In this document: positions 17,439 through 29,741 of the stretch, piece by piece
Layout: every line of letters starts with the position of its first letter
How positions within the stretch are numbered: position 1 is the first letter of the stretch
Source of the DNA: an uncultured Rickettsiales bacterium
GTDB taxonomy: Bacteria; Pseudomonadota; Alphaproteobacteria; Rs-D84
Direction of reading: 5' to 3'
Assembly (NCBI GenBank): GCA_900550565.1
Contig: URSG01000001.1
Coordinates: forward strand, 14,456 to 78,455
Length of the DNA: 64,000 nt
Made by a program: the position numbers and the translations under genes
The notes under the pieces: generated by a model
What the model was told of the DNA's origin: nothing
The model's database searches: none
The model's input: the letters and a program-made list of their open reading frames with translations, nothing else

Positions 17439-17467
17439 AAAACGGGGCGTCTGCCCCGTTTTTTATT
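17439..17467. terminator. Bidirectional terminator at the left edge of the phage-like cluster
   Basis: ACGGGGC-GTCT-GCCCCGT hairpin with A-run and T-run. Confidence 0.75.
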
Positions 17468-17723
17468 TTATAACGGCGGTTTTAATCAGTGACACGTCAT
17501 CGCGAATTGTATCCAGTTTTATCTGTAATTGACCGATGCCTGTTTCCAATATCGTCGTCCGATTTTCCAACGTGGTAATACGCGTGTCTGCGCGTTGAAT
17601 ATCCGCCAATGATGAATCCTGGCGCGCGACCCAATAAATCAGACCGCCGATAAACGCGATTAAAAACCAACTGTCGCGCAGGGTTGCGATTATACCGCCC
17701 AGTCCGTTTGATTCCTGTTTCAT
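17463..17723 (-). CDS. Small membrane-anchored coiled-coil protein (phage-like cluster)
   Basis: One TM (WFLIAFIGGLIYWV) followed by a heptad-like C-terminus. ATGA overlap with the upstream gene. Confidence 0.45.
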   Translation of the reverse strand: MKQESNGLGGIIATLRDSWFLIAFIGGLIYWVARQDSSLADIQRADTRITTLENRTTILETGIGQLQIKLDTIRDDVSLIKTAVIK

Positions 17724-17926
17724 TTTCGCCCCCGTGATATCATATTTTCAATCAAATGCACCAATGCGCGCTGGGATTCCAGACTGCGTAATTCTGCGTC
17801 TGTGGCATTTGGCCCCAAAACACGTTCAATCGTCATTTTTCGCAGATGCTGTAATACCGCCGCACCGGCGGCGGTTGAAAACGCACGTGCATAATTTTGT
17901 TCTGTTTCGTTCATAGTTTTCCCCAT
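17720..17926 (-). CDS. 68-aa conserved-looking small phage protein, unknown function
   Basis: Co-oriented with, and 2 nt downstream of, the portal gene. Confidence 0.4.
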   Translation of the reverse strand: MGKTMNETEQNYARAFSTAAGAAVLQHLRKMTIERVLGPNATDAELRSLESQRALVHLIENMISRGRK

Positions 17927-17928
17927 TG

Positions 17929-19152
17929 TTAAATCAAGTTTTCAGACACCGCCATTTGTGCGATTGGCGCAATGTATTTCAGTTCTGCGTCACTGTTCAG
18001 CGCGATTGGCGCAATCACCCCACGGCGCGATAAAATCTGTAATCCGCGGTCGGTCAACGGCCGAATAAATTCGTGCAGCAATCGCCCGTATGTCGCGCCC
18101 AGAATTCGCATCATATCCGAATTGCGCGCCATAATTTCGGTCGCGGTCATTTCTTTTTCAGACAGCAATCCCAATCGGTCGGCCAACAACGCGTGGCGAA
18201 TCCGTTCGCGCAGGTCTTTTAATATTATTTGCGACACATCAAAATCTGCACCCGACGACAGCGGTGTCAGCCCTGATGACCCAACGGCCTTGGGGATAAT
18301 TGCGCCCGGCGTCAGGTTTATATTGTTCAGATTTATGACGCCATCATCGTCGGCCTGCCATATCCCAGACACGGCAATCGTTGCGTTTTTCAGCACCAGT
18401 TCAACAACCTTGTTCGCGGTTTTAATATCTGGCAATGCGCGCAAGACCGGCCCACGACCGTATTGTTCACCGCTTAAAACACTCCACCGGAAAATGATGT
18501 ATGGATTGGTTTCAAATGTGCCACGCGCAACGATATTGTTTTCCAGATTTCCCCCAACGTCCAACCACGCGGTGAATTCTGTGCCAACCAAACTCTGGAC
18601 CAGGCGCAACGGCGTTGCCGGGTCGTGCTTGATTTGGTCAGCAACATCGGCCGGTGGCGTCCAAGTTGGATATTTTTCCAGCACTTCGTGCGCCGGCATT
18701 GTCGCTGTGTGAAATACTGCGCCTGGCAAAATCGCAATATCGCGCATAGGCACGGCCGTGAACGAAAACGCCGACGACGCGCCGATTGGTGTTTCTGCCA
18801 TAAACAGACACGCCGTCCCCAGAATCACCAAATCCAGATAGCATTGATGAATGGTGGTATAAAAATTTGAATCGTTCAGGTTCGCACGCAACGCCGCCGT
18901 CGCTACATCTGCGTCGGGGGACGCGTCGCTTTCCGGGACCAGTGATATCCACAGCGATTCTGGTGGCGTCATCAGCGAATATATTGACGCCGCCAGGTTG
19001 TCCACCGCGTCTGCCGCGGTTGCGTCAAACAGTGTTGCGGCATCTGCGTCGTCGGTCGGCATAGTATATCGCATTGCCGCGTCCCAGCGATTTAACCACG
19101 GCGCACGCGCGTCCAGTGCACGCCGATACATTTTTTCTAAATCATTTTGCAT
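17929..19152 (-). CDS. Portal (head-to-tail connector) protein, T7 gp8-like
   Basis: The N-terminus YRRALDARAPWLNRWDAAMRYTMP...AVDNLAASIYSLMTP parallels the T7-type connector N-terminus (YERLKNDRAPYETRAQ..YTIP...LNNLASKL..ALFP, recalled from memory). Adjacent to the terminase. Confidence 0.7.
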   Translation of the reverse strand: MQNDLEKMYRRALDARAPWLNRWDAAMRYTMPTDDADAATLFDATAADAVDNLAASIYSLMTPPESLWISLVPESDASPDADVATAALRANLNDSNFYTTIHQCYLDLVILGTACLFMAETPIGASSAFSFTAVPMRDIAILPGAVFHTATMPAHEVLEKYPTWTPPADVADQIKHDPATPLRLVQSLVGTEFTAWLDVGGNLENNIVARGTFETNPYIIFRWSVLSGEQYGRGPVLRALPDIKTANKVVELVLKNATIAVSGIWQADDDGVINLNNINLTPGAIIPKAVGSSGLTPLSSGADFDVSQIILKDLRERIRHALLADRLGLLSEKEMTATEIMARNSDMMRILGATYGRLLHEFIRPLTDRGLQILSRRGVIAPIALNSDAELKYIAPIAQMAVSENLI

Positions 19153-19175
19153 ATTTTCTCCCTAGGTTTCGTTGG

Positions 19176-20024
19176 TTAAAGGTTAAAATCTGTATTTGCC
19201 GCGTATGTGCGGACGCTGCGCCCCGTGGGGCGAATTGGTGTTGGCGCAATACTGATTGCACCTGCAACTGCGTCCAGGCCGTCGTCGTGTCCGGCACTGC
19301 CGATTGGCGACCAGCCCAACATTTCTGCAACAAATGGTGTTTGGGTTATTCTGTGGTGCGCATACATACGCCCCGCCCCCAGAAATGGTTCTATTGCGTC
19401 CAAGATTCGGTCAACCTTGGGCCGATTATTGGTAATACGCATAATTGTAATTGGCGCGCCGACGCGACTGGCCGCGTCACGCATTATTTCAGGCAACGCA
19501 TTTCCGATTCCGTTTGTTTCAATCGTTATGCGACGCATATTGTGACGCGCCATAAATTCCAGCACACAATCGCACTGGCGTGCCAATGGGTGCGTGTCGT
19601 TGTCTGATACCGTCATATATAAAATATCGTGGACAAACACACACCGCGACGCGTCATCACGATACAGAACAACGCACACACTGCCGTCGCGACCGCGGCG
19701 TCCCGTTGACGGGTCCCAATACACCGCCGCGCCTGTGATTTTATGTTCGCCTATTTGCCCACTGCGCGCGTCAAATTCTGCGTCATATAATTGTACACCC
19801 CCTGGGTCCAGTCGCGCGCGTTCTGTGGAAACAGGTTCCAGCATCATTTGCGACGCAAAGTGCCGATTTCCAACCGCATTGCGCAAATCATCAATACGTG
19901 ACGGCGAAAATAATTCCGGCCACGCAGACGCACCTGTGTCGTCAACAATCGGAATTTTCAGCATTTTATATCCATGCAAAAAAGGCGTTGAAAACGTAAT
20001 TTTTTTAGATACTATATTGGACAT
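19176..20024 (-). CDS. Large terminase, C-terminal nuclease half (separate ORF)
   Basis: RNase-H-like nuclease motifs VYWDPSTGRRGRDGS, ITIETNGIG and GHDDGLDAV. Start set at ATG 20024 (MSNIVSKK) with AGGGG 8 nt upstream. The track ORF extends to 20099 with no support. Confidence 0.7.
   Translation of the reverse strand: MSNIVSKKITFSTPFLHGYKMLKIPIVDDTGASAWPELFSPSRIDDLRNAVGNRHFASQMMLEPVSTERARLDPGGVQLYDAEFDARSGQIGEHKITGAAVYWDPSTGRRGRDGSVCVVLYRDDASRCVFVHDILYMTVSDNDTHPLARQCDCVLEFMARHNMRRITIETNGIGNALPEIMRDAASRVGAPITIMRITNNRPKVDRILDAIEPFLGAGRMYAHHRITQTPFVAEMLGWSPIGSAGHDDGLDAVAGAISIAPTPIRPTGRSVRTYAANTDFNL
19988..20016 (+). promoter_or_regulatory. Candidate promoter giving a leaderless dnaB mRNA
   Basis: TTGAAA - 17 nt - ACTATA, with ATG 20023 only 6 nt downstream. 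No SD before dnaB. Confidence 0.35.
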
Positions 20025-21582
20025 GAACTTTACCCCTGGCGTTTTACCACATAATTTAGAGGCCGAACAGGCCGTCCTGGCTGCGGTATTGATGAACAAC
20101 CGTGCATTGGAACGCGTTTCTGAATTTCTGAAACCAGAAGATTTTTCGCACCCTGCGCACCAGGAAATATATAAATTGGCCGAACGTCAATTTGCGGCCG
20201 GTATTCCGTTTGATATTATTACGGCGAAAAATTACCTGGAACAACAGGGCGTACTGGAATCTGTTGGTGGCGTTGATTATTTGACCCAGTTGGCCGGGGC
20301 CGGCGCGACGGTTGTCAACGTTGAACAATATGCACGCATCGTCCACGAAACCGCACTGCGTCGCGAACTAATCCAGTTGGGCCAATCAATCACAGAAAAG
20401 GCTTTTGTTGAAGACCTGGATTCCCCTGTTTCTGCCCAGATAGAAATTGCCGAACAACAATTATTTAATCTGGCGTCTGTGGGCGAAACCCGACGCGAGG
20501 TGACGCCAATCGCAACCGCATTGGCCGGCGCATTAAAAGAGGCCGAGATTGCATACAAGGCCGACGGTAAATTGTCTGGTCTGACCACGGGGCTGAACGC
20601 GCTGGATAAATCCATCAGCGGTCTGCACCACAGTGATTTGATTATTATCGCAGGTCGTCCGGCGATGGGTAAAACAACGCTGGCAATGAACATTGCATTT
20701 AATGCCGCGAACGCAATTTTATCGGGTCGCGCAAACGAACAATACAAAGGCGCGGTCGTATTTTTCAGCCTGGAAATGTCCCAGGAACAGTTGGCGACAC
20801 GTGTATTATCATCTCAGTCCAAGATTTCGGCCACGTCTATGCGCGAAGGGTCATTTTCTGACGAAGAATTTTTAAAGATGTCACAATACGCATCGGCCAT
20901 CAGTCGCGTGCCACTGTTTATTGATGACACGCCTGGTATGTCGGTGCCAATGATGCGCACACGCGCACGTCGTCTGGCACGTAAAAGTGGCGGAATCGCA
21001 TTGATTGTGGTTGACTATCTGCAACTGATGACTGCGCCGGGTGGTCGCAAAAGCGATAATCGCGTCCAGGAAATTTCTGAAATCACACGTGGTCTGAAAA
21101 TGCTGGCCAAGGAATTAAATGTGCCGGTCATCGCCCTGTCCCAGTTATCGCGCAGTGTTGAAAATCGTGACGACAAACGACCCCAGTTGGCAGACTTGCG
21201 TGAATCTGGTTCTATTGAACAGGACGCGGACATTGTTATGTTCACATACCGCGAAGAATATTATCTGGACAACCGCGATCCGTCCCAACGCATTTCTGGC
21301 AACACCAACGAAAAGATTCAAGAAACGTATCAAAAACGTCTGGAACGCGCCCGGGGCAAGGCTGACATTATCATCGGCAAAAACCGTCACGGTCGCCCTG
21401 AAACGGTTCGGACTGCGTTTTTCGGCGATTACAGTTTGTTTGACAATCTGGACGAAATGGACGCGCGTGGCGAAAATGATTTTGCCCAAACACCGAAATC
21501 CCAGCCAAATCCTGATGTTGACAACGCAGGCGCATTTGAACAAATTGACGCATCGGCAATACCTGACGATATGGACTTATAA
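20023..21582 (+). CDS. dnaB: Replicative DNA helicase DnaB
   Basis: LPHNLEAEQAVLAAVL N-terminal motif, Walker A GRPAMGKTT, Walker B IVVDYLQLM, SQLSR, ESGSIEQDAD. The track ORF start 19594 is an antisense run-on over the terminase nuclease half. Confidence 0.92.
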   Translation: MNFTPGVLPHNLEAEQAVLAAVLMNNRALERVSEFLKPEDFSHPAHQEIYKLAERQFAAGIPFDIITAKNYLEQQGVLESVGGVDYLTQLAGAGATVVNVEQYARIVHETALRRELIQLGQSITEKAFVEDLDSPVSAQIEIAEQQLFNLASVGETRREVTPIATALAGALKEAEIAYKADGKLSGLTTGLNALDKSISGLHHSDLIIIAGRPAMGKTTLAMNIAFNAANAILSGRANEQYKGAVVFFSLEMSQEQLATRVLSSQSKISATSMREGSFSDEEFLKMSQYASAISRVPLFIDDTPGMSVPMMRTRARRLARKSGGIALIVVDYLQLMTAPGGRKSDNRVQEISEITRGLKMLAKELNVPVIALSQLSRSVENRDDKRPQLADLRESGSIEQDADIVMFTYREEYYLDNRDPSQRISGNTNEKIQETYQKRLERARGKADIIIGKNRHGRPETVRTAFFGDYSLFDNLDEMDARGENDFAQTPKSQPNPDVDNAGAFEQIDASAIPDDMDL

Positions 21583-21609
21583 TTATTTTACTTGCGGCGC
21601 GCGCAAAAA

Positions 21610-21628
21610 TTGACTAATATTTTGTCAA
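21610..21628. promoter_or_regulatory. Palindromic operator-like site overlapping a -35 element upstream of the tandem-HTH regulator
   Basis: TTGAC-TAATATTTT-GTCAA inverted repeat. The left arm is a TTGACT -35-like hexamer. Confidence 0.4.
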
Positions 21629-21655
21629 GAAATACCCAAGTGCAGGAGTTTTGCC

Positions 21656-22663
21656 ATGGCCCAAGAAGAAATCATTTTTCCAAATAATATCCGTAATATC
21701 CGTCTGAGTGCCGGAATGAAAATGACCGAACTGGCACGCCAGTCGCACCTGTCCCTGTCGGCTGTATCCAAAATTGAAAAGGGTGTGCGCCGTCTGAACC
21801 AGAAACAGTTGCTGAACATTTGCAATATTTTGGGTTGCAAATTATCTGATATTTTCATCAAAGAAGATGACGCCGTCGCTGACCAGTGGCAAAGTGAAAT
21901 CAAACGTCGTCTGAACGACAACGAAGACAGCGGCCTGAAAATATTCGGCAGTGGCCTGCGCAAGATTCGCCAACAAACCGGCAAAACCATCGCCCAGGCG
22001 GCCCAAGATGCCGGTATGACCCTGTCTGTCTATCACAAGATAGAGGTTGGACAACGCGAAATTTACCAAAATGAAATTGAACCATTGGCCAAATCCTTTG
22101 CGATGAGTGCCGAAAAATTATTTGATAAAATCGCCACATTGTATAAATCAGGCGAATTAAACAAACAAATAAACAAGGTCAAAGAACGCGTAAAATCCGT
22201 TCTGATTCCTGACAACCCGGCATCTGGGATTGATATGCACGGCGGACTGTATGGCGCAAAATTATATGACAGTGCGCGCAAAAAACTGGTTCCTGTGTTT
22301 GGCACACCGTCCGGCAAATCAATTATGTTCAAGAAATCTGATGAAACAATGATTGTTGCCCCAATGCCCCTAGAAGGACGCAGCGGAATATACGCCGTTA
22401 TGCCAAATTCAAAACGTATGGCCGGTTTTATCCCTGAACATTCGTATGTATTTGCCGACGCAACCCAGACACCGGCCGTTGGTGATTTGGCGGTTTGCAT
22501 TGACAGTGATTTTTCATCTTTGTCATCTGATGCGGTCGCAACCGCCCAGATTGTCAGTGTCCGCCAGGATTCCCGTGGCAAGGTGTATGGCCAAATTTCA
22601 TCACCTGATGAAAAAATCATCGGCAAAACTATGCACAAGGTCATTATGATTGTTATGGAATAA
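21656..22663 (+). CDS. Tandem-HTH (2x XRE-type) regulator with a LexA/CI-like C-terminal beta domain
   Basis: Two Cro/C1-type HTH repeats (IRNIRLSAGMKMTELARQSHLSLSAVSKIEKG; LRKIRQQTGKTIAQAAQDAGMTLSVYHKIEVG). The C-terminus aligns loosely to the S24 fold; Ser is possibly kept (NSKRM) but the expected Lys position reads Arg. Confidence 0.6.
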   Translation: MAQEEIIFPNNIRNIRLSAGMKMTELARQSHLSLSAVSKIEKGVRRLNQKQLLNICNILGCKLSDIFIKEDDAVADQWQSEIKRRLNDNEDSGLKIFGSGLRKIRQQTGKTIAQAAQDAGMTLSVYHKIEVGQREIYQNEIEPLAKSFAMSAEKLFDKIATLYKSGELNKQINKVKERVKSVLIPDNPASGIDMHGGLYGAKLYDSARKKLVPVFGTPSGKSIMFKKSDETMIVAPMPLEGRSGIYAVMPNSKRMAGFIPEHSYVFADATQTPAVGDLAVCIDSDFSSLSSDAVATAQIVSVRQDSRGKVYGQISSPDEKIIGKTMHKVIMIVME

Positions 22664-22686
22664 TCACCCAGCAAGAGAGAGAGAAT

Positions 22687-23367
22687 ATGAAAGCCAAAGC
22701 CAGCATAACCGCACAAAAGTTATTAAACCTGTATCGCCAAGAACATGTTATAATTGGCGGTTGGGCATCTGTAAACCCTGTCTTTGTAGCCGAAGCCGAC
22801 GATGACGTTATCCGCGAACTGCGCGCATTGCCAACGGGCAAAATGCTGATTCAGCACATTGAAAATCTGCGCAGTGGCCGCACCCAAATGGATACCATTG
22901 AACGCGGATTATTACCATACGGCGGACAAATGACCGAAACGGTTGTCACGGTGCCACTGACCCAGGACGAATGGCGCGAACTGGAAAATGGTATCAATTC
23001 GTTTGTGCCTGATGAAAATGGCCTGAAACAAATCCAGCAATTGGACGTTATACGCAAATTTGGCGACGAATGGCCGGTGGCAATTCATTCGGCACTTGCC
23101 CAGAAACCCGAACTGTCATCAAAATGGACCGTCATTACCAAAACATATCGCGCGTATTATCTGTGGCACGTTGCAACAGATATGCTGAACGAACCACTGT
23201 CTGAACGTGCGCGCGCGCAATTACAGGCCGATATGCCAGAATACGAAACGTATCTGCCGATGTTTGGCGACGCAGGCGACGCATTGCTGCACAAACTGCG
23301 CGCATTTATCAGCACACGCAACCCGATTGATACCGATAACGCGCCAAACGCACCGACGTCTATTTAA
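22687..23367 (+). CDS. Hypothetical 226-aa protein
   Basis: Good ORF 23 nt after the regulator. No motif recognised. Its stop overlaps the stop of the terminase ATPase half (TTAA). Confidence 0.5.
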   Translation: MKAKASITAQKLLNLYRQEHVIIGGWASVNPVFVAEADDDVIRELRALPTGKMLIQHIENLRSGRTQMDTIERGLLPYGGQMTETVVTVPLTQDEWRELENGINSFVPDENGLKQIQQLDVIRKFGDEWPVAIHSALAQKPELSSKWTVITKTYRAYYLWHVATDMLNEPLSERARAQLQADMPEYETYLPMFGDAGDALLHKLRAFISTRNPIDTDNAPNAPTSI

Positions 23368-23990
23368 TCGTCGTCTGTGCGGTAAATCGTGTCTGGGGTA
23401 TGTGGTGTGCCGATATAAATCATTGTGCCACCGGGCGACAATATAAAATCCAATTCACGCAACCGTTCACGCAACTTTTCACGTTTATCTGGGGTATTGC
23501 TGGTATTTGGAACCTCTACGTCATCACAGATAATTAAATCTGCGCGCGCACCGGTGATATTACCGGCAACCCCGGCGCATACAACCGACGGTTCGCGCAC
23601 GCCGATGGGACGATTTATCGTTATTCGGTCATTTGACCACGTTCGTCGCCCCGTCGGAATCATATCTGCACAGCGCGGATGATTTTCCAGAATATTACGA
23701 ATATGCCCAACCATCCGCGATGACAATGTGCTTTCTGCGGATAAAATCAGAATACGCGATTCTGGGCGCAGCCCCAGGACGCACGCAGCAAAAATTCCAA
23801 CGACGGTAGATTTGCCAGAATGCCGAAATGCCATCAACAAACCGCGATTTGGTGGCGACGTCCAAACGTCAACCAAGAATTTCATTATGCGCCGATGATG
23901 TTCAGGCGTCGTCATTCCCAGCAATGCGTTCCACTCGTCCATAAAATCCAGAAACGCCGTTGTCATCGCATTTTCAATTTGGTGTGACAT
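23364..23990 (-). CDS. Large terminase, N-terminal ATPase half (separate ORF)
   Basis: Walker A AFRHSGKST, Walker B ADLIICDDVE, motif III IYIGTPHT. Ends with a genuine TAA after ...IYRTDDD. Confidence 0.75.
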   Translation of the reverse strand: MSHQIENAMTTAFLDFMDEWNALLGMTTPEHHRRIMKFLVDVWTSPPNRGLLMAFRHSGKSTVVGIFAACVLGLRPESRILILSAESTLSSRMVGHIRNILENHPRCADMIPTGRRTWSNDRITINRPIGVREPSVVCAGVAGNITGARADLIICDDVEVPNTSNTPDKREKLRERLRELDFILSPGGTMIYIGTPHTPDTIYRTDDD

Positions 23991-24005
23991 CGCCCCACCC
24001 TTTTG

Positions 24006-24353
24006 CTATGCGACCAGACTGTCAAATTTATCCATCAGTTTTTTCAGTAAATTTGGTCTGGTTGTTTTTACCTGGCGCAATTTTTCCAATGACTTGCGTC
24101 GTTTTTCATCGTATGGCGCAGACGTTTCAGATTGCAGGCGACGCAACACGGCATCTTCGGTCATACCGCGATTTGACATTCCCGACGCGCCATATTTTGC
24201 GCGCTGGGCCGCCAGTGCTTTTTTCACCAGATTCGTTTTTGTTTTTTCATCTGCGGCCATATCCGCCAAGATTTTTTTGCGTGCAGTGCTGGCATCGCTT
24301 TTGCTTTTTTTATAGTCCAAGACATCTTGAACATCAGAAACCAGTTGTCCCAT
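24006..24353 (-). CDS. Highly charged 115-aa protein, unknown (TerS or internal-protein position)
   Basis: Lys/Glu/Ala-rich, directly upstream of the terminase ATPase half. No motif recognised. Confidence 0.4.
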   Translation of the reverse strand: MGQLVSDVQDVLDYKKSKSDASTARKKILADMAADEKTKTNLVKKALAAQRAKYGASGMSNRGMTEDAVLRRLQSETSAPYDEKRRKSLEKLRQVKTTRPNLLKKLMDKFDSLVA

Positions 24354-24376
24354 TTTTATCCCCTTTGCTTGATTTG

Positions 24377-26104
24377 TTAAACGGTATAGAACCCATACAT
24401 CGTGACAGACATCACTGTGATATTGGACGCATCACACGATGTGATTTGCCACGGCCACGAAACGCACTGGCGCGTCCACCCCAATGTGTTGATTGAAACA
24501 TCACCTGTGAACCCAGGATTTGTTTCTGTGTAAATTTCATCGGGCAATTTTGCACAAACGTTGTTTATCGTGATTGATTTTGTATCACTGACACGTGCAG
24601 TAATTTTGCGAATACGCGCATGCGACGCGTTATGCCCACTGCCCCGTAATGGAATCCCAGCGGCAGCGACGGCAAATTTATAATCTGGCGCATCACACAG
24701 TGCGCTGTGCGAAAACTGTTCCAGGTAATATTTATCATCGCGCGCAACAACAACAAATGTTTTGTCCGCAGATACCGCAACAGATTTGAATTCGCCATTT
24801 GTTTTATACTGTGACCACGCCGAAATCCCCAACGCCGTATTTTTATTCAGAACCGCCATATTGCCCGACGACATAACAACAAACAACTGGCGATTGGTGC
24901 TGTTATACGCAATATCCACCGGCGTCTGCATCAAATGCTTGGCATACGCGCACAGGTCGGTTGCGTTATAATGTTCGCCCAACTCGTCCAGGCTCAGTTC
25001 ACGAATATCACGCATAGACGCGGCAACGAATACGGTCGCCCCTTCTATCTTTTGCGGTGGCAGATAACGCGACGACACACTGCCCACAGACGTGTGCTGT
25101 TTTATATCCACCGACGACGGGGTCAGTGGTTTATTCGCGATTGCCCATTCGCCAACCGTTGTCAAAATTTGCAGATTATCCGCACTGACAACCGTGCAAA
25201 TCTGTTGTCGCTGGGCCGACAGCAATGTGATAAATATCGCCTGGTCGTCCAGCCCGGTTCCAACGTCAAAGTTATTGTGGCGACCGACCTGGGACAGCCA
25301 TACCCCAGCAGGATAATCGCGCGCGCCACCAAAAACCAATCTGTCTTGGTGAAATGTGATACTGACCGGCCACCCACGACGCGCACTGAACGCGGCCTGA
25401 CGCCAATCTGTCACCGGGCCAGACGGCAACGAAAACGTCCCGTTCGTATGGGCGGTTGCGCACTTTGTGTTGGTGACCGATGTTATTGTCCACTGGCGAT
25501 TTAATACAAAGAACCGTCCGCCAATATCATCAGACGTCCAAAATGCCCGGTTCGTTGTAAATGTCGCATAGTTGTTGCCAGCGCTGTTTGCCGTGACACT
25601 TATTTCAATGCCGTCCGTATCATCAAATTTCACAAACGGAATATTTACAGACAAATCAGAATCGTTGCGCGAAAAGTTAAATAACGACAACGTAAATCCG
25701 TCTGCGTTTTTCTGTAATACACGCGGCTGGAAATCAGGGTGTACAAAAATCATCGTTCCAAAACGCTGGGCGTATTGCAGCGACGCAATCGCGTCTGTCG
25801 GCCACGGCGACGCAATATCTTGGATTTGTGTTGCGCCGGCAAAGACCAAGATATGCTCGTCTGTGATTGCCAACAAGTATTCTTGATTTGGCCCCACAGA
25901 AAACGGCACCAAACGCACAGACGCGTCCAGTTCGGCAATTTCTGTCAGGCCTGCGCGACGCGTTATTCCGCCCCCAGACATAACGTCCATATTCACCAGT
26001 TGCCCCAGTCCATTTAAATTATCGTGCGCATAGAATTCGCGCGAAATTTCGCCGTCTGCAAAAGAATTTTGGGTGTTTATAAAATTTGCCATTTTGTTCC
26101 CCAC
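24377..26104 (-). CDS. Large tail protein, tail-tubular-B/nozzle-like
   Basis: 575-aa beta-rich protein immediately after the adaptor-like gene. Its N-terminal pattern (N..F..GE.S......N......N.......GG..RR.G) is typical of podovirus nozzle proteins. Confidence 0.45.
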   Translation of the reverse strand: MGNKMANFINTQNSFADGEISREFYAHDNLNGLGQLVNMDVMSGGGITRRAGLTEIAELDASVRLVPFSVGPNQEYLLAITDEHILVFAGATQIQDIASPWPTDAIASLQYAQRFGTMIFVHPDFQPRVLQKNADGFTLSLFNFSRNDSDLSVNIPFVKFDDTDGIEISVTANSAGNNYATFTTNRAFWTSDDIGGRFFVLNRQWTITSVTNTKCATAHTNGTFSLPSGPVTDWRQAAFSARRGWPVSITFHQDRLVFGGARDYPAGVWLSQVGRHNNFDVGTGLDDQAIFITLLSAQRQQICTVVSADNLQILTTVGEWAIANKPLTPSSVDIKQHTSVGSVSSRYLPPQKIEGATVFVAASMRDIRELSLDELGEHYNATDLCAYAKHLMQTPVDIAYNSTNRQLFVVMSSGNMAVLNKNTALGISAWSQYKTNGEFKSVAVSADKTFVVVARDDKYYLEQFSHSALCDAPDYKFAVAAAGIPLRGSGHNASHARIRKITARVSDTKSITINNVCAKLPDEIYTETNPGFTGDVSINTLGWTRQCVSWPWQITSCDASNITVMSVTMYGFYTV

Positions 26105-26110
26105 AGTTTG

Positions 26111-26629
26111 CTAAAATCGTGAATTTATCAGTGAAAAGTTTTCAATCTTTGACGGCGATGACGTTGTGCCATCAATAAATTTTGCCGTCTGTAATTCTGT
26201 TTCGTATAACGCTGCCAACATTCTGAACATCGCCTGGTCACCGGTCAGTGGCACACTGAATTCCATCGCCAGTTTTGTTGCCGCCACAGACACAAAATAC
26301 CCAGGAAATTCGTCTGGGGCAATACGCGCCACCCCAATCACAGAAACAGTATCCGTTGGTGCAATAATTTTGTTTCCGATAACATTACCCACAGATTTAA
26401 TCACACGCAGACATTCGGTTGGCAATACAAAATCCCCATCAGAATTTCTGACTAAATCAAACCGGCGACACGCAAATCGCCACGGATGAACCGCAATCAA
26501 CGCATCTATGACTGGGTCAAACAGCGTGCGCCCCAGTTGTGCCGCCGCACTGTCGTCCATCAATGACTGAATTGGTTGTTCGCCCAGTTTTAACAACGCC
26601 ATTGAACATAAATCTATTTTGGTTAACAT
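26111..26629 (-). CDS. Tail tubular protein A / adaptor-like protein
   Basis: The N-terminus CSMALLKLGEQPIQSLMDDS...HPWRFA matches the AL..LGe.PI.SLdd......W.F pattern of podovirus gp11-like adaptors (from memory). Confidence 0.5.
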   Translation of the reverse strand: MLTKIDLCSMALLKLGEQPIQSLMDDSAAAQLGRTLFDPVIDALIAVHPWRFACRRFDLVRNSDGDFVLPTECLRVIKSVGNVIGNKIIAPTDTVSVIGVARIAPDEFPGYFVSVAATKLAMEFSVPLTGDQAMFRMLAALYETELQTAKFIDGTTSSPSKIENFSLINSRF

Positions 26630-26650
26630 TTCCGTTTTTCCTTGTGTCTA

Positions 26651-26681
26651 AAAAAATTATGGGGCGTTTTTATGCGCCCCA
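26651..26681 (-). terminator. Intrinsic terminator inside the late-gene string (after the capsid and 76-aa genes)
   Basis: On the minus strand: GGGGCG-loop-CGCCCC hairpin followed by AUAAUUUUUU. Confidence 0.6.
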
Positions 26682-26699
26682 ATTTATAAATCAGTAAAA

Positions 26700-26930
26700 T
26701 TATCCCAACGCTGCCGTTGTGACTGTGCCAGACGCCACACTTATCGTCTTGATTGACGTTTTGTCTGACGCATTGATGATAACAATGTCGCCAGTATTCA
26801 TCAGTGTGTTCACAGCATTAAAATAACCACTGGCGGTGATTGTTGCCAATGTCACATTTTCTGCATAGTGCCACAGCGTAAAGCCATTTGCGTATGCAAT
26901 CACAGATAAATTTTTATTCTGAAAAGCCAT
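26700..26930 (-). CDS. 76-aa protein after the capsid gene (decoration/accessory head protein position)
   Basis: Co-oriented, 22 nt after the capsid gene. No motif recognised. Confidence 0.4.
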   Translation of the reverse strand: MAFQNKNLSVIAYANGFTLWHYAENVTLATITASGYFNAVNTLMNTGDIVIINASDKTSIKTISVASGTVTTAALG

Positions 26931-26952
26931 CTATTTTTCCTTTGGTTATTTT

Positions 26953-27786
26953 TTATTCTGCGTCGGTGTCTTTGCATTTGATACGAACGATACCGTCGCC
27001 ATCAATCAGAACTGCGCCCTGGGACATACTGTTGCTGATAAAGTGCGCTGCACGTTCACCGTGCCACGAAATATCCGTTTTAACTTCCTGGCCACAGGCG
27101 TGTCCGACACTGGACGCGTGATAAATAAAGCAATCACGTTTTGTCGCGTCAGACAACGGCAACGCGTTATACAGCACCCATGTAATTCCCAACCATTTCT
27201 TGGACGCGCCCCCAGAAATCAACGGCAAATCATTATTGCCGACATAATCTGCGGAAACGAATTCTGTGATTTTCAATAATTCGTTCCACTGATGCACGCC
27301 AACAACGGCAAAGCGACGACCATCGTCTGGAATATCTTTGCTGTTCAATGTTTCAACCGCTGACAAAATCAAATCCTTGCTCAGACCGGCCGAATAATCA
27401 CCCACAGATGCACTGGCACCGTTCATCGCATTTACAATCAGTTCGTCGGTTTTTCGGCCCAACGCATACGCGCCTGCACTGGCCACAACACGGCGTTCAT
27501 CAATATTGGTTTTCAATTCGTCCAACGCATCAACCCAATCACCGGCATAGTAATCTTGCAGAACGCATTCAACCGGTTCGTGATTCAGATTCATAACTGG
27601 CACAATGCCGTGACGTGATTTTGTCGCCGCAGTGCCACGTCCAACCTTTTGGAACGTTGTTGATGCACCGACAACACCTGATTTACTGCGCACAGTTCCG
27701 CGCAATTTTGTGCCCATTTGCTGATATGCCAAATGGACATCTGCTTCAAATTGTTTTACAAAAACTTGGTCTATGGAAACAGACAT
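26953..27786 (-). CDS. Major capsid protein
   Basis: 277 aa, between the scaffold and adaptor genes. N-terminal pattern FVKQFEADVHLAYQQMGTKLRGTV...STTFQKVG typical of small podovirus/HK97-fold coat proteins. AAGGGGAAAAA SD. Confidence 0.7.
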   Translation of the reverse strand: MSVSIDQVFVKQFEADVHLAYQQMGTKLRGTVRSKSGVVGASTTFQKVGRGTAATKSRHGIVPVMNLNHEPVECVLQDYYAGDWVDALDELKTNIDERRVVASAGAYALGRKTDELIVNAMNGASASVGDYSAGLSKDLILSAVETLNSKDIPDDGRRFAVVGVHQWNELLKITEFVSADYVGNNDLPLISGGASKKWLGITWVLYNALPLSDATKRDCFIYHASSVGHACGQEVKTDISWHGERAAHFISNSMSQGAVLIDGDGIVRIKCKDTDAE

Positions 27787-27963
27787 TATTTTTCCCCTTG
27801 GTTAAAATTTCTTGGTTATGGCGCAATAAATTGCGTCAAAAAATTTCATCACACGGTTATGCGCCGACGCGCGCCGCAATGAAATACAAAACCGGGTTCC
27901 AATAAATTCGGAATTATCCGTAAAAAAAAATTTCAGTCGCACCGATAAGATACGACTGATACT

Positions 27964-27996
27964 TTTTTCAAATACAAACCCCACCAAACGGTGGGG
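27964..27996 (-). terminator. Intrinsic terminator after the H1-like gene
   Basis: On the minus strand: CCCCACC-GTTT-GGTGGGG followed by UUUGUAUUU. Confidence 0.65.
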
Positions 27997-28002
27997 AAAA
28001 TA

Positions 28003-28362
28003 TTATTTTTTCTTGGCTGCTGGTTTCTTTGCAACTGGCTTTTTAGCAGGTGCTTTTTTCGCAACAACTTTTTTTGCAGCAGGTTTTTTTACCGCTACTT
28101 TTTTAGCAACAGGTTTTTTTGCTGCAACTTTTTTTGCAACTGGTTTCGCTGCTGGTTTCTTTGCAACAACTTTTTTTGCTGCTGGCTTTTTAACCGCTAC
28201 TTTTTTAGCAACTGGTTTTTTCGCCGCTACTTTCTTTGCAGCTGGTTTTGCTGCTGGTTTCTTTGCAGCAGGTTTTGCCGCTGGTTTTTTTGCCGCTGGT
28301 TTCGCAGCAGGTTTTTTTGCAGCAACTTTTTTCGCTGCTGGCTTCAAGAATGTGAATGCCAT
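28003..28362 (-). CDS. Histone-H1-like Lys/Ala/Pro-repeat basic protein (119 aa)
   Basis: [26 protein letters not shown]... built almost entirely of [10 protein letters not shown] units. ATG 28362 behind an AAGGAGAG SD is preferred over the track start 28395. Has its own terminator. Confidence 0.7.
28010..28340 (-). repeat. Coding tandem repeats (12-15-nt AAKK/PAAK units; a ~25-aa block [25 protein letters not shown] occurs twice)
   Basis: Visible periodicity in the DNA and in all three translated frames on both strands. Confidence 0.85.
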
Positions 28363-28465
28363 TCTTCTCTCCTTTTTACTTTTTGGATAGAACAAATTTT
28401 TTTGTTCTTACTTTGTATTTTATACGAAACATAAAACAGAGTAAAGAAGAAAGTGCATTTTTTTA

Positions 28466-29128
28466 TCACGAATATAATTTTTTAAATCCATTTTCTATTT
28501 TTCTGACGTATTCAACATCGTGATCACGCCAATATTTTGGATTACGCATCATACGTCGCAAATCATTATCAGATAAATTTACATCATCACCATCGGCGGT
28601 TTGAACGTCTGGTTCCATTGATTGCATCATTCTGTATATGCCTTGGATTCCCTGGGGTGTAGCGCACAACGCATCAAACGCATCACGTGGTAAAAACTTT
28701 TCACCAAACGCGTTTATCTGTTTAATTGCTTCGTTCATTTTATCTGTTCCACCAAAGAAATTTTTCAGTTCAGAAATTGCTGCGGCTTCGTTTTGTTGTG
28801 CGAACAAATCAGTTATCACTGGTGATAAAAATTCTTGGGCAATGTCATAAATTTTTGTGACCTGAGACGACGTCAACCCAATTTCAAAAAATTTTGCGCG
28901 TAAATTTTCATCATCAAACAAATCATTTTTCGGATATTCATCGGCGGCATTTGGCACGCCAATCGCGCGTCTGAAACGATTGCGCGTATCATCATCGGCA
29001 TCATCAGACGGCACACTTATCATCGTTCCGATTTTCTTTTCCAGTGCAGAATACGATTTTATCAACGCATCAGCGTTTAATGTTCCGTCGTCATTTTGAA
29101 ATTTTTCAGGAATTTTTTCCATTTTCAT
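28466..29128 (-). CDS. Capsid scaffolding/assembly protein
   Basis: The acidic helical protein starts IPEKFQNDDGTLNADALIKSYSALEKKIG, a pattern common in podovirus scaffold proteins. Located upstream of the capsid gene. Confidence 0.55.
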   Translation of the reverse strand: MKMEKIPEKFQNDDGTLNADALIKSYSALEKKIGTMISVPSDDADDDTRNRFRRAIGVPNAADEYPKNDLFDDENLRAKFFEIGLTSSQVTKIYDIAQEFLSPVITDLFAQQNEAAAISELKNFFGGTDKMNEAIKQINAFGEKFLPRDAFDALCATPQGIQGIYRMMQSMEPDVQTADGDDVNLSDNDLRRMMRNPKYWRDHDVEYVRKIENGFKKLYS

Positions 29129-29322
29129 TTTCCTTTGTTTTGATTATTTGATTTGCGAATAAAATAAATTCCACCCAACGTGAACAATGCCTGGCACAGA
29201 ACAAACACATCACTGTCGCCGACCAAATACGCCGCAATCGCAGACATTGCGCCAACTGCTGACATAATGTGTGTGCGCCTGTCTGCCAGCCAGCCACCAC
29301 GAATAATTTTTTGCATATTCAT
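29125..29322 (-). CDS. Holin-like small membrane protein (two TM helices, basic C-terminus)
   Basis: 65 aa; TM1 IMSAVGAMSAIAAYLV, TM2 VFVLCQALFTLGGIYFI; tail KSNNQNKGK. Follows the lysin gene. Confidence 0.45.
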   Translation of the reverse strand: MNMQKIIRGGWLADRRTHIMSAVGAMSAIAAYLVGDSDVFVLCQALFTLGGIYFIRKSNNQNKGK

Positions 29323-29324
29323 TT

Positions 29325-29741
29325 TTAATCCTGTAAATAAAACAGTATTCCATCAACATCGGCGATATAGCCACGCGACATCGCCCACTGTGGCATTTCA
29401 TCTGTGCGATGAAAACGTGTCGCGCCAAAGCACGAATCGCCCAGGTTTCCACGCAACATTCGTCGCGCCACACGCAAACACATTTGAAATGCACGCGAAT
29501 CCGGGGCAACGCCCAATAATTTATGTCGCGCGTTATCTGGGCATAGCGATGGGAACAACGTGGCATCGTTTATAATTACATCTGGGGCAACGCCGGTGGC
29601 ACGTGATATATTCGCTATCATTGACGTGAACGCTTCTGTCACAGACAATGATGTTGCACCTGTCTCGGCATAAACAACGCGCGCGATTTTATATGCCGCG
29701 CCCTGTGACGCATCTGGATTTTTTATCAGTTCAAGTTGCAT
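29325..29741 (-). CDS. Cell-wall hydrolase (SleB/CwlJ Hydrolase_2-like), putative endolysin
   Basis: ARVVYAETGATS...MIANISR pattern resembling the YAEARGE...NR motif of the SleB-type hydrolase domain. First gene of the cluster. Confidence 0.5.
   Translation of the reverse strand: MQLELIKNPDASQGAAYKIARVVYAETGATSLSVTEAFTSMIANISRATGVAPDVIINDATLFPSLCPDNARHKLLGVAPDSRAFQMCLRVARRMLRGNLGDSCFGATRFHRTDEMPQWAMSRGYIADVDGILFYLQD

What the first reader, a model, noticed from the sequence alone, without database searches (positions are those of the whole stretch)
19176..23990. Large terminase split into separate ATPase and nuclease ORFs by a 3.3-kb opposite-strand gene block
ORF 23364-23990(-) holds a complete TerL ATPase half (Walker A AFRHSGKST, Walker B ADLIICDDVE, motif III IYIGTPHT) and then stops. 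ORF 19176-20024(-) holds a complete RNase-H-like nuclease half (VYWDPSTGRRGRDGS, ITIETNGIG, GHDDGLDAV). Together, 208 + 282 aa equals a normal one-piece TerL, and the break falls in the inter-domain linker. Three plus-strand genes lie between the halves: dnaB, a tandem-HTH regulator and a 226-aa unknown. Both junctions are base-tight, with a TTAA stop/stop overlap at 23364-23367 and back-to-back ATGs at 20022-20025. The nuclease ORF has its own AGGGG SD 8 nt upstream, inside dnaB codons. Neither half has internal stops. This looks like a selected two-polypeptide terminase or an old, polished insertion, not fresh decay.
Basis: partly seen in the sequence, partly recalled or inferred. Interest (0 to 1): 0.85.

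Follow-up and report, generated by a model that had tools for sequence, protein, structure and literature searches.

The report
Conserved two-piece terminase around dnaB
A phage DNA-packaging enzyme that is normally one protein is encoded here as two separate genes with the cell's own replication helicase gene between them, and this layout is conserved and under selection across the tiny-genome gut bacteria Candidatus Enterousia, so it is a working, domesticated virus-derived module rather than decay.

Summary
ORF 23364-23990(-) and ORF 19176-20024(-) are the two consecutive parts of one T7-type large terminase (TerL). No residues are missing at the junction. They are separated by 3.3 kb holding dnaB, a double-HTH regulator and an unknown gene on the other strand.

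It is not an artefact or fresh decay. The same five-gene layout is found in 73 of 83 related loci from Candidatus Enterousia and kin (about 0.9-Mb gut Alphaproteobacteria). Catalytic motifs are essentially invariant, and dN/dS is 0.05-0.18, like housekeeping genes. The nearest outgroup TerLs are one-piece, 480-515 aa.

One correction: the break is not in the inter-domain linker. It lies in a loop just after ATPase motif III. The second chain therefore carries the last ATPase strand, the lid helices and the nuclease.

The halves belong to a vertically inherited T7-like cluster that has structural and lysis genes only, so it resembles a gene transfer agent. The dnaB gene is of the cellular type, and its conserved promoter lies inside the first 15 codons of the C-half.

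A second lineage splits TerL at the same loop into two adjacent, overlapping cistrons with no insertion. The split may therefore predate the insertion.

Best reading: a non-covalent two-chain terminase. This is a new variant of a known kind, and its function is not yet shown.

The parts
23364..23990 (-). TerL chain 1 (208 aa). It holds the ATPase Rossmann core with Walker A (FRHSGKST), Walker B and catalytic Glu (DLIICDDVE) and motif III (IGTPH), followed by a short acidic tail.
   Evidence: phrog_38 E=1e-47. NCBIfam termin_lrg_T7 scores 224.6 bits against a cut-off of 150, profile positions 2-190. Residues 49-206 align to PDB 8dgc_E residues 54-213. Motifs are invariant in 59-83 relatives. 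dN/dS 0.05-0.09.
22687..23367 (+). Conserved 226-aa protein of unknown function. It is the last gene of the intervening block, and its stop overlaps the stop of TerL chain 1 (TTAA).
   Evidence: No hit in Pfam, PHROGs, NCBIfam, PADLOC or PDB. Present in all 73 complete loci at 53-87% identity, dN/dS 0.07-0.18.
21656..22663 (+). 335-aa regulator with two XRE-type HTH domains and a C-terminal domain of about 170 aa. It is one of the most conserved genes of the locus.
   Evidence: Pfam HTH_3 at residues 12-65 and HTH_31 at 97-146. Mean column identity 86% over 26 species. dN/dS 0.04-0.08.
20023..21582 (+). dnaB, the cellular-type replicative DNA helicase (519 aa).
   Evidence: NCBIfam NF006606 scores 607 bits (cut-off 540) and TIGR00665 scores 515 bits (cut-off 385). 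The phage_DnaB model TIGR03600 scores 412 bits, below its cut-off of 499. Pfam DnaB + DnaB_C.
19977..20022 (+). Conserved dnaB promoter embedded in the first ~15 codons of TerL chain 2. It has an A-tract, a -35 box TTGAAA (19988-19993) and a -10 box TACTAT (20010-20015). The dnaB ATG lies 7 nt after the -10 box.
   Evidence: The promoter scan finds it. It is nearly invariant at the nucleotide level in 72 loci. Synonymous-site entropy is 0.11 in C-half codons 1-15 against a gene mean of 0.73.
19176..20024 (-). TerL chain 2 (282 aa). It holds the last ATPase beta-strand (LKIPIV), two lid helices, a linker and the RNase H-like nuclease (D104, E169, D247/D248/D251).
   Evidence: phrog_38 E=3e-35, positions 473-713. 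termin_lrg_T7 profile positions 216-500. The AF2 model is confident for residues 71-282 and matches terminase nucleases: 8dgc_E at 7e-11, plus P22, Sf6 and pUL15. dN/dS 0.08-0.18.
17929..19152 (-). Portal (head-to-tail connector), immediately downstream of TerL chain 2.
   Evidence: Pfam Head-tail_con E=3e-81. 78-99% identity across loci, dN/dS 0.03-0.05.
17463..17926 (-). Bbp19-like small protein (17720-17926) and an 86-aa protein (17463-17723). These are the last genes of the phage-like cluster.
   Evidence: Pfam Phage_Bbp19 E=7e-11. Conserved in the loci.
17439..17462 (.). Bidirectional hairpin terminator that closes the cluster.
   Evidence: Stem of 10 bp with 6 GC pairs and T-runs on both strands.
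24006..29741 (-). Upstream part of the same cluster. It holds an endolysin-like gene (29325-29741), scaffold (28466-29128), major capsid (26953-27786), a 76-aa protein (26700-26930), tail tube A (26111-26629), tail tube B (24377-26104) and a 115-aa protein (24006-24353).
   Evidence: Pfam Phage_T7_Capsid and Phage_capsid_2 (E=6e-72). PHROG tail proteins phrog_394 and phrog_376. Hydrolase_2 and phrog_938 endolysin. Same order in the related loci that reach these genes.

Best explanation
The two ORFs encode a two-chain large terminase.

- Chain 1 is the nucleotide-binding core of the packaging ATPase, up to and including motif III.
- Chain 2 supplies the last beta-strand and the lid helices of that same ATPase domain, then the linker and the RNase H-like nuclease.
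- The cut lies in a surface loop. The two chains are therefore expected to reassemble non-covalently by fragment complementation into a normal T7-type motor on the portal.

The genes belong to a chromosomal, vertically inherited T7-like head/tail-tube/lysis cluster in Candidatus Enterousia. These are gut Alphaproteobacteria of order Rs-D84 with genomes of about 0.9 Mb. The cluster has no replication or integration genes, so it looks like a domesticated element that makes particles, in the manner of a gene transfer agent.

The block between the halves is cellular: dnaB, a regulator and an unknown gene. The dnaB promoter overlaps the first codons of chain 2.

Shown here: the anatomy, the conservation, the purifying selection, the position of the cut and the cellular type of dnaB.
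Inferred: that the chains associate, that the motor packages DNA, and that particles are made.
For: - The halves are consecutive parts of one TerL family with nothing missing.
- The layout is conserved in 73 of 83 loci, and both ORFs are intact in 70 of those 73. The insert length is 3260-3363 bp.
- The best 120 homologues of the N-half are all 189-225 aa. Those of the C-half are nearly all 279-288 aa.
- dN/dS of both halves is like that of housekeeping genes. Catalytic residues are invariant or nearly so.
- Position of the cut: in the AF2 model of the one-piece relative P0122 (pLDDT 89.7), motif III ends strand 185-195. Loop 196-224 has the lowest confidence within the ATPase part. Strand 225-229 and helices 246-265 follow, and the nuclease starts at about 283. 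The break corresponds to residues 207-219.
- Foldseek matches that model to PhiV-1, T4, Sf6 and D6E terminases. It aligns about 280 columns to the P74-26 ATPase-only construct.
- The C-half modelled alone is disordered for residues 1-70 and confident for the nuclease.
- The chain ends are variable. The acidic tail runs 9-44 aa after GTPH, and 7-15 aa precede FSTPFL. This is expected for a permissive loop.
- Domestication: synteny lipB ... yraN is conserved, and there is no integrase or polymerase within 10 kb either side. Capsid and portal are about as conserved as dnaB. Pairwise distances of the phage-like genes correlate with those of lipB and dnaB, rho 0.3-0.76.
- Outgroups carry one-piece TerL in the canonical order portal-scaffold-capsid-tubes-TerL.
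- A second lineage (L106/L107) cuts TerL at the same loop into overlapping cistrons (ATGGGTGA, with SD GGAGGAG).
Against: - There is no direct evidence that the chains bind each other or that particles are made.
- No multimer model could be run.
- The cluster lacks recognisable internal-core proteins and a small terminase. In this window it also lacks the tail-fibre stub present in 64 of 79 relatives. The particle may therefore be incomplete or do something other than deliver DNA.
- No conserved promoter for chain 2 and portal was found inside the dnaB 5' codons, so how they are transcribed is unknown.
- The C-half is among the fastest-evolving genes of the cluster, with a mean pairwise distance of 0.37.
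- Amino-acid conservation of C-half residues 1-16 is confounded by the overlapping dnaB promoter.
Confidence: 0.6

Rival explanations
1. The halves are kept, but not as a packaging motor. Each chain, or only one, has taken on another role such as a stand-alone nuclease or ATPase. Alternatively, the reading frames persist mainly because they overlap signals of the essential dnaB block.
For: The dnaB promoter lies inside C-half codons 1-15. The N-half stop overlaps the 226-aa gene. The cluster has lost core and fibre genes relative to outgroups. The C-half evolves faster than the N-half.
Against: Overlaps cover only a few codons. Low dN/dS and near-normal synonymous variation extend over the whole length of both ORFs. 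All packaging-ATPase and nuclease catalytic residues are invariant. Portal, capsid, scaffold and tail-tube genes are co-conserved next to them.
Confidence: 0.2
2. The two halves are rejoined into a one-piece TerL. Possible routes are excision or inversion of the 3.3-kb block in producer cells, RNA trans-splicing or an intron, or a split intein.
For: There are precedents elsewhere. Herpesvirus UL15 has two exons around antisense genes (own knowledge). Streptomyces phage terminase genes are interrupted by short non-coding gaps and are thought to be recoded (PMC10732093).
Against: - Rfam gives no group I or II intron, or any other hit, in 19000-24100, even at E<=1.
- No direct or inverted repeats bracket the block, and no recombinase is present in it.
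- The junction holds 15 aa where the one-piece relative has 11, so there is no room for intein fragments.
- No one-piece form appears among the best 120 homologues of either half.
- Excision would remove dnaB.
Confidence: 0.03
3. This is an ordinary, possibly still mobile, prophage or a decaying remnant whose terL was broken by an insertion, or it is an assembly artefact.
For: Phage-derived genes sit in a bacterial chromosome. A few relatives have a shortened C-half (L048 130 aa, L061 97 aa).
Against: The locus sits at the same chromosomal position between lipB and yraN, in the same order, in dozens of species-level genomes from many hosts and assemblers. These include a circular long-read chromosome, and the same strain appears in at least 6 independent contigs. 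There is no integrase or replication module. Purifying selection is strong.
Confidence: 0.05

Closest known systems
T7-type large terminase (T7 gp19; PhiV-1 TerL, PDB 8DGC chain E; NCBIfam NF033889 termin_lrg_T7; phrog_38)
   Same: It has the same family, the same order of motifs, an ASCE ATPase followed by an RNase H-like nuclease, and sits next to a T7-type portal, scaffold, capsid and tail tube A/B.
   Different: It is encoded as two polypeptides, cut after motif III. The halves are 3.3 kb apart with cellular genes on the other strand between them. The total is 490 aa, like the ~500-aa alphaproteobacterial relatives and unlike T7's 586 aa.
One-piece TerL of chromosomal T7-like clusters in Rhodospirillales (Roseospirillum parvum, Caenispirillum bisanense, Magnetospirillum) and IMG/VR contigs L084-L088
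   Same: These are the closest relatives: 45-51% identity to the N-half, 55-59% for capsid and 44-46% for portal. At least in Roseospirillum parvum and Caenispirillum bisanense the clusters are embedded among cellular genes with cell-wall hydrolase genes (plus a GTA-type holin in R. parvum) and no replication genes within reach.
   Different: TerL there is a single 483-515-aa gene. In the IMG/VR contigs that reach it, portal lies upstream of scaffold. Larger tail or core genes sit between tube B and TerL. No dnaB is nearby.
Gene transfer agents (RcGTA, BaGTA, VSH-1)
   Same: It is a phage-derived cluster of structural and lysis genes with no replication or integration genes. It is fixed at one chromosomal site, inherited with the host and under purifying selection.
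   Different: It derives from a T7-like podovirus rather than an HK97-like siphovirus. The terminase is split. No particle or DNA-transfer data exist. No CtrA boxes are present.
Herpesvirus terminase gene UL15 (two exons flanking UL16/UL17 on the opposite strand; own knowledge)
   Same: The terminase ATPase gene is interrupted by a block of genes encoded on the other strand.
   Different: There the halves are joined by mRNA splicing into one protein. Here there is no intron signature, and bacteria lack that machinery.
Interrupted terminase genes of Streptomyces phages phiHau3 and StrepC.1 (PMC10732093)
   Same: terL reading frames are broken into consecutive ORFs.
   Different: Those gaps are 7-10 nt and are thought to be bridged by recoding to give one protein. 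That could apply to the adjacent split in L106/L107 but not to a 3.3-kb antisense block.

Membership tests
T7-type large terminase (NF033889 / phrog_38) | ASCE packaging ATPase with Walker A, Walker B plus catalytic Glu, and motif III | tested here: met
   FRHSGKST, DLIICDDVE and IGTPH are present and invariant in relatives. Residues align to 8dgc_E 54-213.
T7-type large terminase (NF033889 / phrog_38) | C-terminal RNase H-like nuclease with an acidic triad | tested here: met
   D104, E169 and D247/D248/D251 are invariant. The AF2 model matches terminase nuclease domains.
T7-type large terminase (NF033889 / phrog_38) | Score above the curated family cut-off | tested here: inconclusive
   The N-half scores 224.6 bits, above the 150 cut-off. 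The C-half alone scores 107.9 bits, below it. Together they cover profile positions 2-190 and 216-500.
T7-type large terminase (NF033889 / phrog_38) | Both domains on a single polypeptide | tested here: not met
   There are two ORFs 3.3 kb apart, and the same holds in 73 of 83 loci.
Gene transfer agent | Phage-like structural cluster without its own replication or integration genes, at a fixed chromosomal site | tested here: met
   Only head, tail-tube, lysis and terminase genes lie between lipB and yraN. The flanks are housekeeping genes.
Gene transfer agent | Inherited with the host lineage and under purifying selection | tested here: met
   Synteny holds across the 80 species-level loci wherever the contigs extend. 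dN/dS is 0.02-0.18. Pairwise distances correlate with those of lipB and dnaB.
Gene transfer agent | Particles are produced that package fragments of host DNA and transfer them | not testable with these tools
   This needs virus-like-particle sequencing, electron microscopy or genetics.
Split intein / protein trans-splicing | Intein N- and C-fragments at the two ends of the split | tested here: not met
   Only 2 + 13 residues lie at the junction, where the one-piece relative has 11.
Group I / group II intron-interrupted gene | Intron RNA structure at the junctions | tested here: not met
   No Rfam match in 19000-24100 at E<=1.
Developmentally excised intervening element (skin / nifD-element type) | Site-specific recombinase in the element and repeats at its ends | tested here: not met
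   The block encodes dnaB, an HTH regulator and an unknown protein, with no recombinase family hit. No repeats flank it.
Cellular replicative helicase DnaB | Passes the equivalog models for replicative DnaB and not the phage-DnaB model | tested here: met
   NF006606 scores 607 against a cut-off of 540, and TIGR00665 scores 515 against 385. TIGR03600 phage_DnaB scores 412, below its cut-off of 499.
Cellular replicative helicase DnaB | It is the only dnaB of the genome | not tested
   Whole genomes could not be read. Only this 64-kb window and 20-kb loci were available.

The most novel reading that the evidence does not exclude
Enterousia and its relatives carry a previously unrecognised podovirus-derived (T7-like) gene transfer agent whose packaging motor is assembled from two polypeptides. 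The essential dnaB gene and its promoter are nested inside the terminase gene. This both locks the element into a shrinking genome and couples, by divergent or antisense transcription, the choice between chromosome replication and particle production.
Probability: 0.25. Interest if true: 0.85.

Novelty: new variant of a known kind. Interest (0 to 1): 0.72.

Why it matters
Large terminases are textbook single-chain, two-domain motors. A naturally occurring version under selection that is cut inside the ATPase domain would show that the motor tolerates fragment complementation at a defined loop. It would also offer a handle for dissecting how ATPase, lid and nuclease communicate.

The setting adds interest. 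These are about 0.9-Mb gut symbionts whose genomes are being reduced, yet they keep roughly 8.4 kb of T7-like virion genes about as conserved as dnaB. That argues the virion genes provide a cellular function. It points to a possible new, podovirus-type family of GTA-like elements, also seen with one-piece TerL in Rhodospirillales.

The nesting of the replicative helicase gene and its promoter within a virus-derived gene is an unusual case of entanglement between host and domesticated-virus genes.

Tried and rejected
- **Fused-chain model.** I aligned a concatenated N+C sequence with homologues of both halves, to model the reassembled protein. MAFFT misaligned the C-half homologues onto the N-half (A3), so I did not use it. 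I modelled the one-piece relative P0122 instead.
- **Pfam on the fused sequence and on P0122.** This gave only weak partial Terminase_6N hits and did not help place the domain border.
- **Profile search of the C-half against PDB sequences.** Only marginal matches to T7-type TerL. Fold comparison was needed.
- **The 226-aa protein.** No hit in Pfam, PHROGs, NCBIfam, PADLOC or the PDB profile search.
- **CtrA-box scan** (TTAA-N7-TTAA) as a GTA-type regulatory signal. One site in the window, at chance level and outside the cluster.
- **Promoter and terminator scan.** Promoter-like sites are at chance frequency (20 found against 20.1 expected). Only the dnaB promoter gained support, from cross-species conservation.
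- **Conserved promoter for the C-half and portal inside dnaB.** Synonymous-site conservation in the dnaB 5' codons is not reduced.
- **Metagenome scan for more members of the adjacent-split lineage.** Only 27-29% relatives turned up.
- **P0261 / L108.** This looked like a third split, but it is an in-frame TAA inside an otherwise continuous frame, so it is probably an error or a pseudogene.
- **P0272, a 402-aa C-half homologue.** It is an internal tandem duplication, not a one-piece TerL.
- **Neighbour-joining tree.** It could not resolve whether the two split lineages share an origin; they are sisters in 15 of 100 bootstraps. An earlier version of the script timed out.
- **Literature searches.** None describe this locus.

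Full report

The ORF list shows 23364-23990(-) of 208 aa and 19176-20099(-). The latter is 282 aa from the ATG at 20024. The quoted motifs are all there.

The sequence at the two junctions is as described.
- TTAA at 23364-23367 is shared by the stop of the N-half and the stop of the 226-aa plus-strand ORF.
- CATG at 20022-20025 holds the two divergent start codons, so dnaB starts at 20023.

Both ORFs hit the same terminase families in consecutive register.
- In PHROG 38, the N-half covers positions 268-459 (E=1e-47) and the C-half 473-713 (E=3e-35).
- In NCBIfam termin_lrg_T7 (500 positions), the N-half covers 2-190 and the C-half 216-500.
- The N-half aligns to residues 54-213 of the PhiV-1 terminase (8DGC_E) and 52-212 of T7 gp19.

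Against the nearest one-piece relative (P0122, 505 aa), N-half residues 9-206 match 10-207 and C-half residues 14-273 match 219-488. The junction therefore has 15 residues where the one-piece protein has 11. Nothing is missing.

Between the halves lie three genes:
- dnaB (Pfam DnaB + DnaB_C);
- a 335-aa protein with two XRE-type HTH domains;
- a 226-aa protein with no family hit.

**2. Not an artefact, not recent decay**

The identical N-half protein is found on at least six contigs from separate samples. One of them is 894 kb long.

A scan of one genome per GTDB species found 582 stretches encoding relatives. The best 80 loci (71-88% identity) come from MAGs named Candidatus Enterousia or unnamed Alphaproteobacteria, from human, ruminant, horse, bird and rodent guts. 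They include a circular 958,618-bp long-read chromosome. Published work describes Enterousia (order Rs-D84) as having reduced genomes of about 0.75-1.0 Mb. It does not mention this locus (PMC12306168).

Of the 83 loci fetched (these 80 plus three contigs carrying homologue P0051), 73 reach far enough to hold all five genes. In every one of those the order and strands are the same: N-half, then the unknown gene, the HTH gene and dnaB on the other strand, then the C-half. The distance between the halves is 3260-3363 bp. The N-half is 198-238 aa. The C-half is 279-287 aa in 70 of the 73; two are shortened and one runs off its contig.

In the 5.8-billion-protein collection, all of the best 120 homologues of the N-half are 189-225 aa. 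Nearly all of the best 120 of the C-half are 279-288 aa.

**3. Selection**

Nei-Gojobori dN/dS between the window and its four closest relatives:

| Gene | dN/dS |
|---|---|
| TerL N-half | 0.05-0.09 |
| TerL C-half | 0.08-0.18 |
| dnaB | 0.07-0.09 |
| lipB | 0.05-0.12 |
| yraN | 0.13-0.15 |
| capsid | 0.02-0.05 |
| portal | 0.03-0.05 |

dS is 0.6-1.6 for most genes, so these values are approximate.

Walker A, Walker B with the catalytic Glu, motif III and the nuclease acidic residues (D104, E169, D247, D248, D251) are invariant or nearly so across 59-83 sequences.

**4. Where exactly is the cut?**

That is not what the structure says.

An AlphaFold2 model of the one-piece relative P0122 used 66 one-piece homologues and reached mean pLDDT 89.7. 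Its elements run in this order:
- the strand that ends in motif III (185-195);
- a loop (196-224), the least confident part of the ATPase region;
- a further beta-strand (225-229);
- two helices (246-265);
- the nuclease, from about residue 283.

Foldseek matches this model to the PhiV-1, T4, Sf6 and D6E terminases. It aligns about 280 columns to the P74-26 ATPase-domain-only crystal construct. The ATPase domain therefore extends to about residue 275.

The Enterousia break corresponds to residues 207-219, inside the loop after motif III. That is 60-70 residues before the domain ends. Chain 2 therefore carries the last ATPase strand (LKIPIV), the lid helices (WPELF...FASQMML), the linker and the nuclease.

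In agreement, chain 2 modelled alone is poorly defined for residues 1-70 and confident for 71-282. The confident part matches terminase nucleases.

The chain ends vary in length. After GTPH come 9-44 residues, mostly acidic. Before FSTPFL come 7-15 residues. This fits a permissive surface loop.

That strand 225-229 joins the ATPase sheet rests on domain borders and on general knowledge of terminase ATPases. I could not inspect coordinates.

**5. The surroundings: a domesticated T7-like module**

On the minus strand the order is: endolysin-like gene, scaffold, capsid, a 76-aa gene, tail tube A, tail tube B, a 115-aa gene, N-half, [block], C-half, portal, Bbp19-like gene, an 86-aa gene, and a strong bidirectional terminator.

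The flanks are housekeeping genes: lipB, FKBP, trmA-like, LpxI, PriA, GapA and MiaA on one side, and yraN, a VirB8-like gene and BamA on the other. There is no integrase, polymerase or recognisable small terminase.

The same order between lipB and yraN holds in the related loci that reach these genes. Mean pairwise protein distances across 53 loci are 0.135 for capsid, 0.159 for dnaB, 0.173 for portal, 0.22 for the N-half, 0.31 for lipB and 0.37 for the C-half. Pairwise distances of the phage-like genes correlate with those of lipB and dnaB (Spearman 0.3-0.76). This is what co-inheritance predicts.

This profile fits a GTA-like domesticated element: structural and lysis genes only, a fixed site, inheritance with the host and purifying selection. 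Particle production is not shown.

**6. The block**

dnaB passes the NCBIfam equivalog models for the cellular replicative helicase (NF006606, 607 bits against a cut-off of 540). It fails the phage-DnaB model (412 bits against 499). I could not test whether it is the only dnaB of the genome.

Immediately upstream of dnaB lies a motif of the sigma-70 type: AAAAAAGGCGTTGAAAA, a 16-17-nt spacer, then TATACTAT. It is almost invariant in 72 loci. It lies inside the first ~15 codons of the C-half, where synonymous-site entropy falls to 0.11 against a gene mean of 0.73. In the window the dnaB ATG is 7 nt after the -10 box. Some relatives have 18-31 extra bases there with an AAGGA Shine-Dalgarno sequence.

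No comparable conserved element was seen in the 5' codons of dnaB. The promoter that serves the C-half and portal is therefore unknown. It may be weak, or those genes may depend on read-through from the capsid operon antisense to the block. That last idea is speculation.

**7. Evolution**

The nearest relatives outside the clade share at most 51% identity with the N-half. The full-length ones are one-piece proteins of about 450-530 aa.

They occur in chromosomes of Rhodospirillales such as Roseospirillum parvum, Caenispirillum bisanense and Magnetospirillum, and in IMG/VR contigs of about 13.7 kb. The order there is canonical: portal, scaffold, capsid, tube A, tube B, larger tail or core genes, a small gene, TerL. 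In R. parvum and C. bisanense the clusters sit among cellular genes with cell-wall hydrolase genes, and the R. parvum cluster also has a GTA-type holin gene.

Compared with these, the Enterousia cluster differs in four ways:
- it has lost about 3 kb of tail or core genes;
- portal now lies downstream of TerL;
- TerL is split;
- the dnaB block sits in the split.

A second lineage is known from two contigs of another bacterium, one a 1.47-Mb contig whose assembler name suffix ('c') suggests it is circular. There TerL is encoded as two adjacent cistrons cut at the same loop, 16 residues after GTPH. The cistrons overlap by 8 nt (ATGGGTGA), with GGAGGAG upstream. There is no insertion and no capsid or portal within 8 kb.

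A neighbour-joining tree makes each split lineage monophyletic (100/100). They are sisters in only 15 of 100 bootstraps, and the deep branches are unresolved. Two scenarios remain. Either the loop was cut twice independently, or an adjacent two-cistron stage preceded the insertion of the block between cistrons that were already separate. In the second case the insertion would have been nearly neutral. I cannot decide between them.

**8. Ways of rejoining the halves**

- Rfam finds no intron or other RNA family in 19000-24100, even at E<=1.
- No repeats bracket the block, and the block has no recombinase.
- The junction is too short for intein fragments.
- Ribosomal recoding cannot bridge 3.3 kb of antisense genes, although it cannot be excluded for the adjacent-split lineage.
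- No one-piece form occurs among close homologues. The one 402-aa C-half homologue is an internal duplication.

**9. Comparison with what is known**

The proteins are T7-type TerL by every sequence and fold criterion except being one polypeptide.

I found no description of this locus, or of a terminase split around cellular genes, in the searchable literature. This is only absence within an incomplete library. The nearest precedents are:
- Streptomyces phage terminase genes interrupted by 7-10-nt gaps and thought to be recoded (PMC10732093);
- from my own knowledge, herpesvirus UL15, whose two exons flank antisense genes and are spliced.

Both precedents yield one protein. Here two proteins are the only reading consistent with the evidence.

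**10. Verdict**

The split is real, old, conserved and under selection (confidence about 0.95). That it works as a non-covalent two-chain packaging motor in a GTA-like particle system is the best explanation but remains inferred (about 0.6).

I rate it a new variant of a known kind, interest 0.72.

Noticed in passing
window 23991-24005 (gap between the 115-aa gene and the N-half); L004:9490-10044: In 64 of 79 related loci, a 182-184-aa gene sits between the 115-aa gene and the N-half and overlaps the N-half start. It matches only the N-terminal, tail-attachment part of phage tail-fibre families (phrog_1640). The window and 15 other loci lack it, and no copy was found elsewhere in the window.
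   Followed up: partly
window 17463-19152 versus L004: Synonymous divergence from the closest relative L004 is only 0.15 for portal, 0.39 for the Bbp19-like gene and 0.49 for the 86-aa gene. The scaffold and the 76-aa gene are also on the low side (0.57 and 0.43). The other genes compared give 0.6-1.1. This suggests recent recombination or exchange of the portal segment between species.
   Followed up: no
L001:16532-19890, L003:16533-19924; L001-L003 after yraN: Strains that share an identical N-half protein differ in the cargo between the last cluster gene and yraN (178 + 429 aa, or 660 aa, or nothing). They also carry a 158-aa protein with an Mtd_N domain, the tropism-determinant domain of Bordetella phage BPP-1. 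This is a possible variable receptor-binding region. The window has none of it.
   Followed up: no
window 19977-20025: In the window, the dnaB ATG lies only 7 nt after the conserved -10 box TACTAT, which would give a leaderless or nearly leaderless mRNA. Some relatives have 18-31 extra bases there with an AAGGA ribosome-binding site.
   Followed up: partly
L102 (Roseospirillum parvum), L103 (Caenispirillum bisanense), L084-L088 (IMG/VR): Chromosomal T7-like clusters with a one-piece TerL occur in Rhodospirillales. In L102 and L103 they carry cell-wall hydrolase genes (L102 also a GTA-type holin gene), sit among cellular genes and have no replication genes within reach. Three IMG/VR contigs of this type have nearly the same length (13.6-13.8 kb). 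This may be an undescribed podovirus-type GTA-like family.
   Followed up: partly
L106:8001-9480, L107:8001-9441: In another bacterium TerL is split at the same loop into two adjacent overlapping cistrons. The head of the second chain carries a PKFPE-like repeat whose copy number differs between the two genomes. A 149-aa gene precedes the pair, and no capsid or portal lies within 8 kb.
   Followed up: partly
L108:3310-4047: A soil metagenome contig has a T7-type terL with an in-frame TAA at the same post-motif-III loop. The frame continues as ...LIIPLF... after the stop. This is probably a sequencing error or a pseudogene.
   Followed up: partly
window 15854-16549 (-): A 231-aa membrane protein with a VirB8 domain and two unannotated genes (15213-15854, 14404-15195) lie just beyond yraN, next to bamA. 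This is a possible remnant or part of a type IV secretion or DNA-uptake system beside the phage-like cluster.
   Followed up: no
window 21656-22663 (+): The double-HTH regulator is one of the most conserved proteins of the locus, with 86% mean column identity over 26 species and dN/dS 0.04-0.08. Its C-terminal ~170 residues match no family. Its target is unknown.
   Followed up: partly
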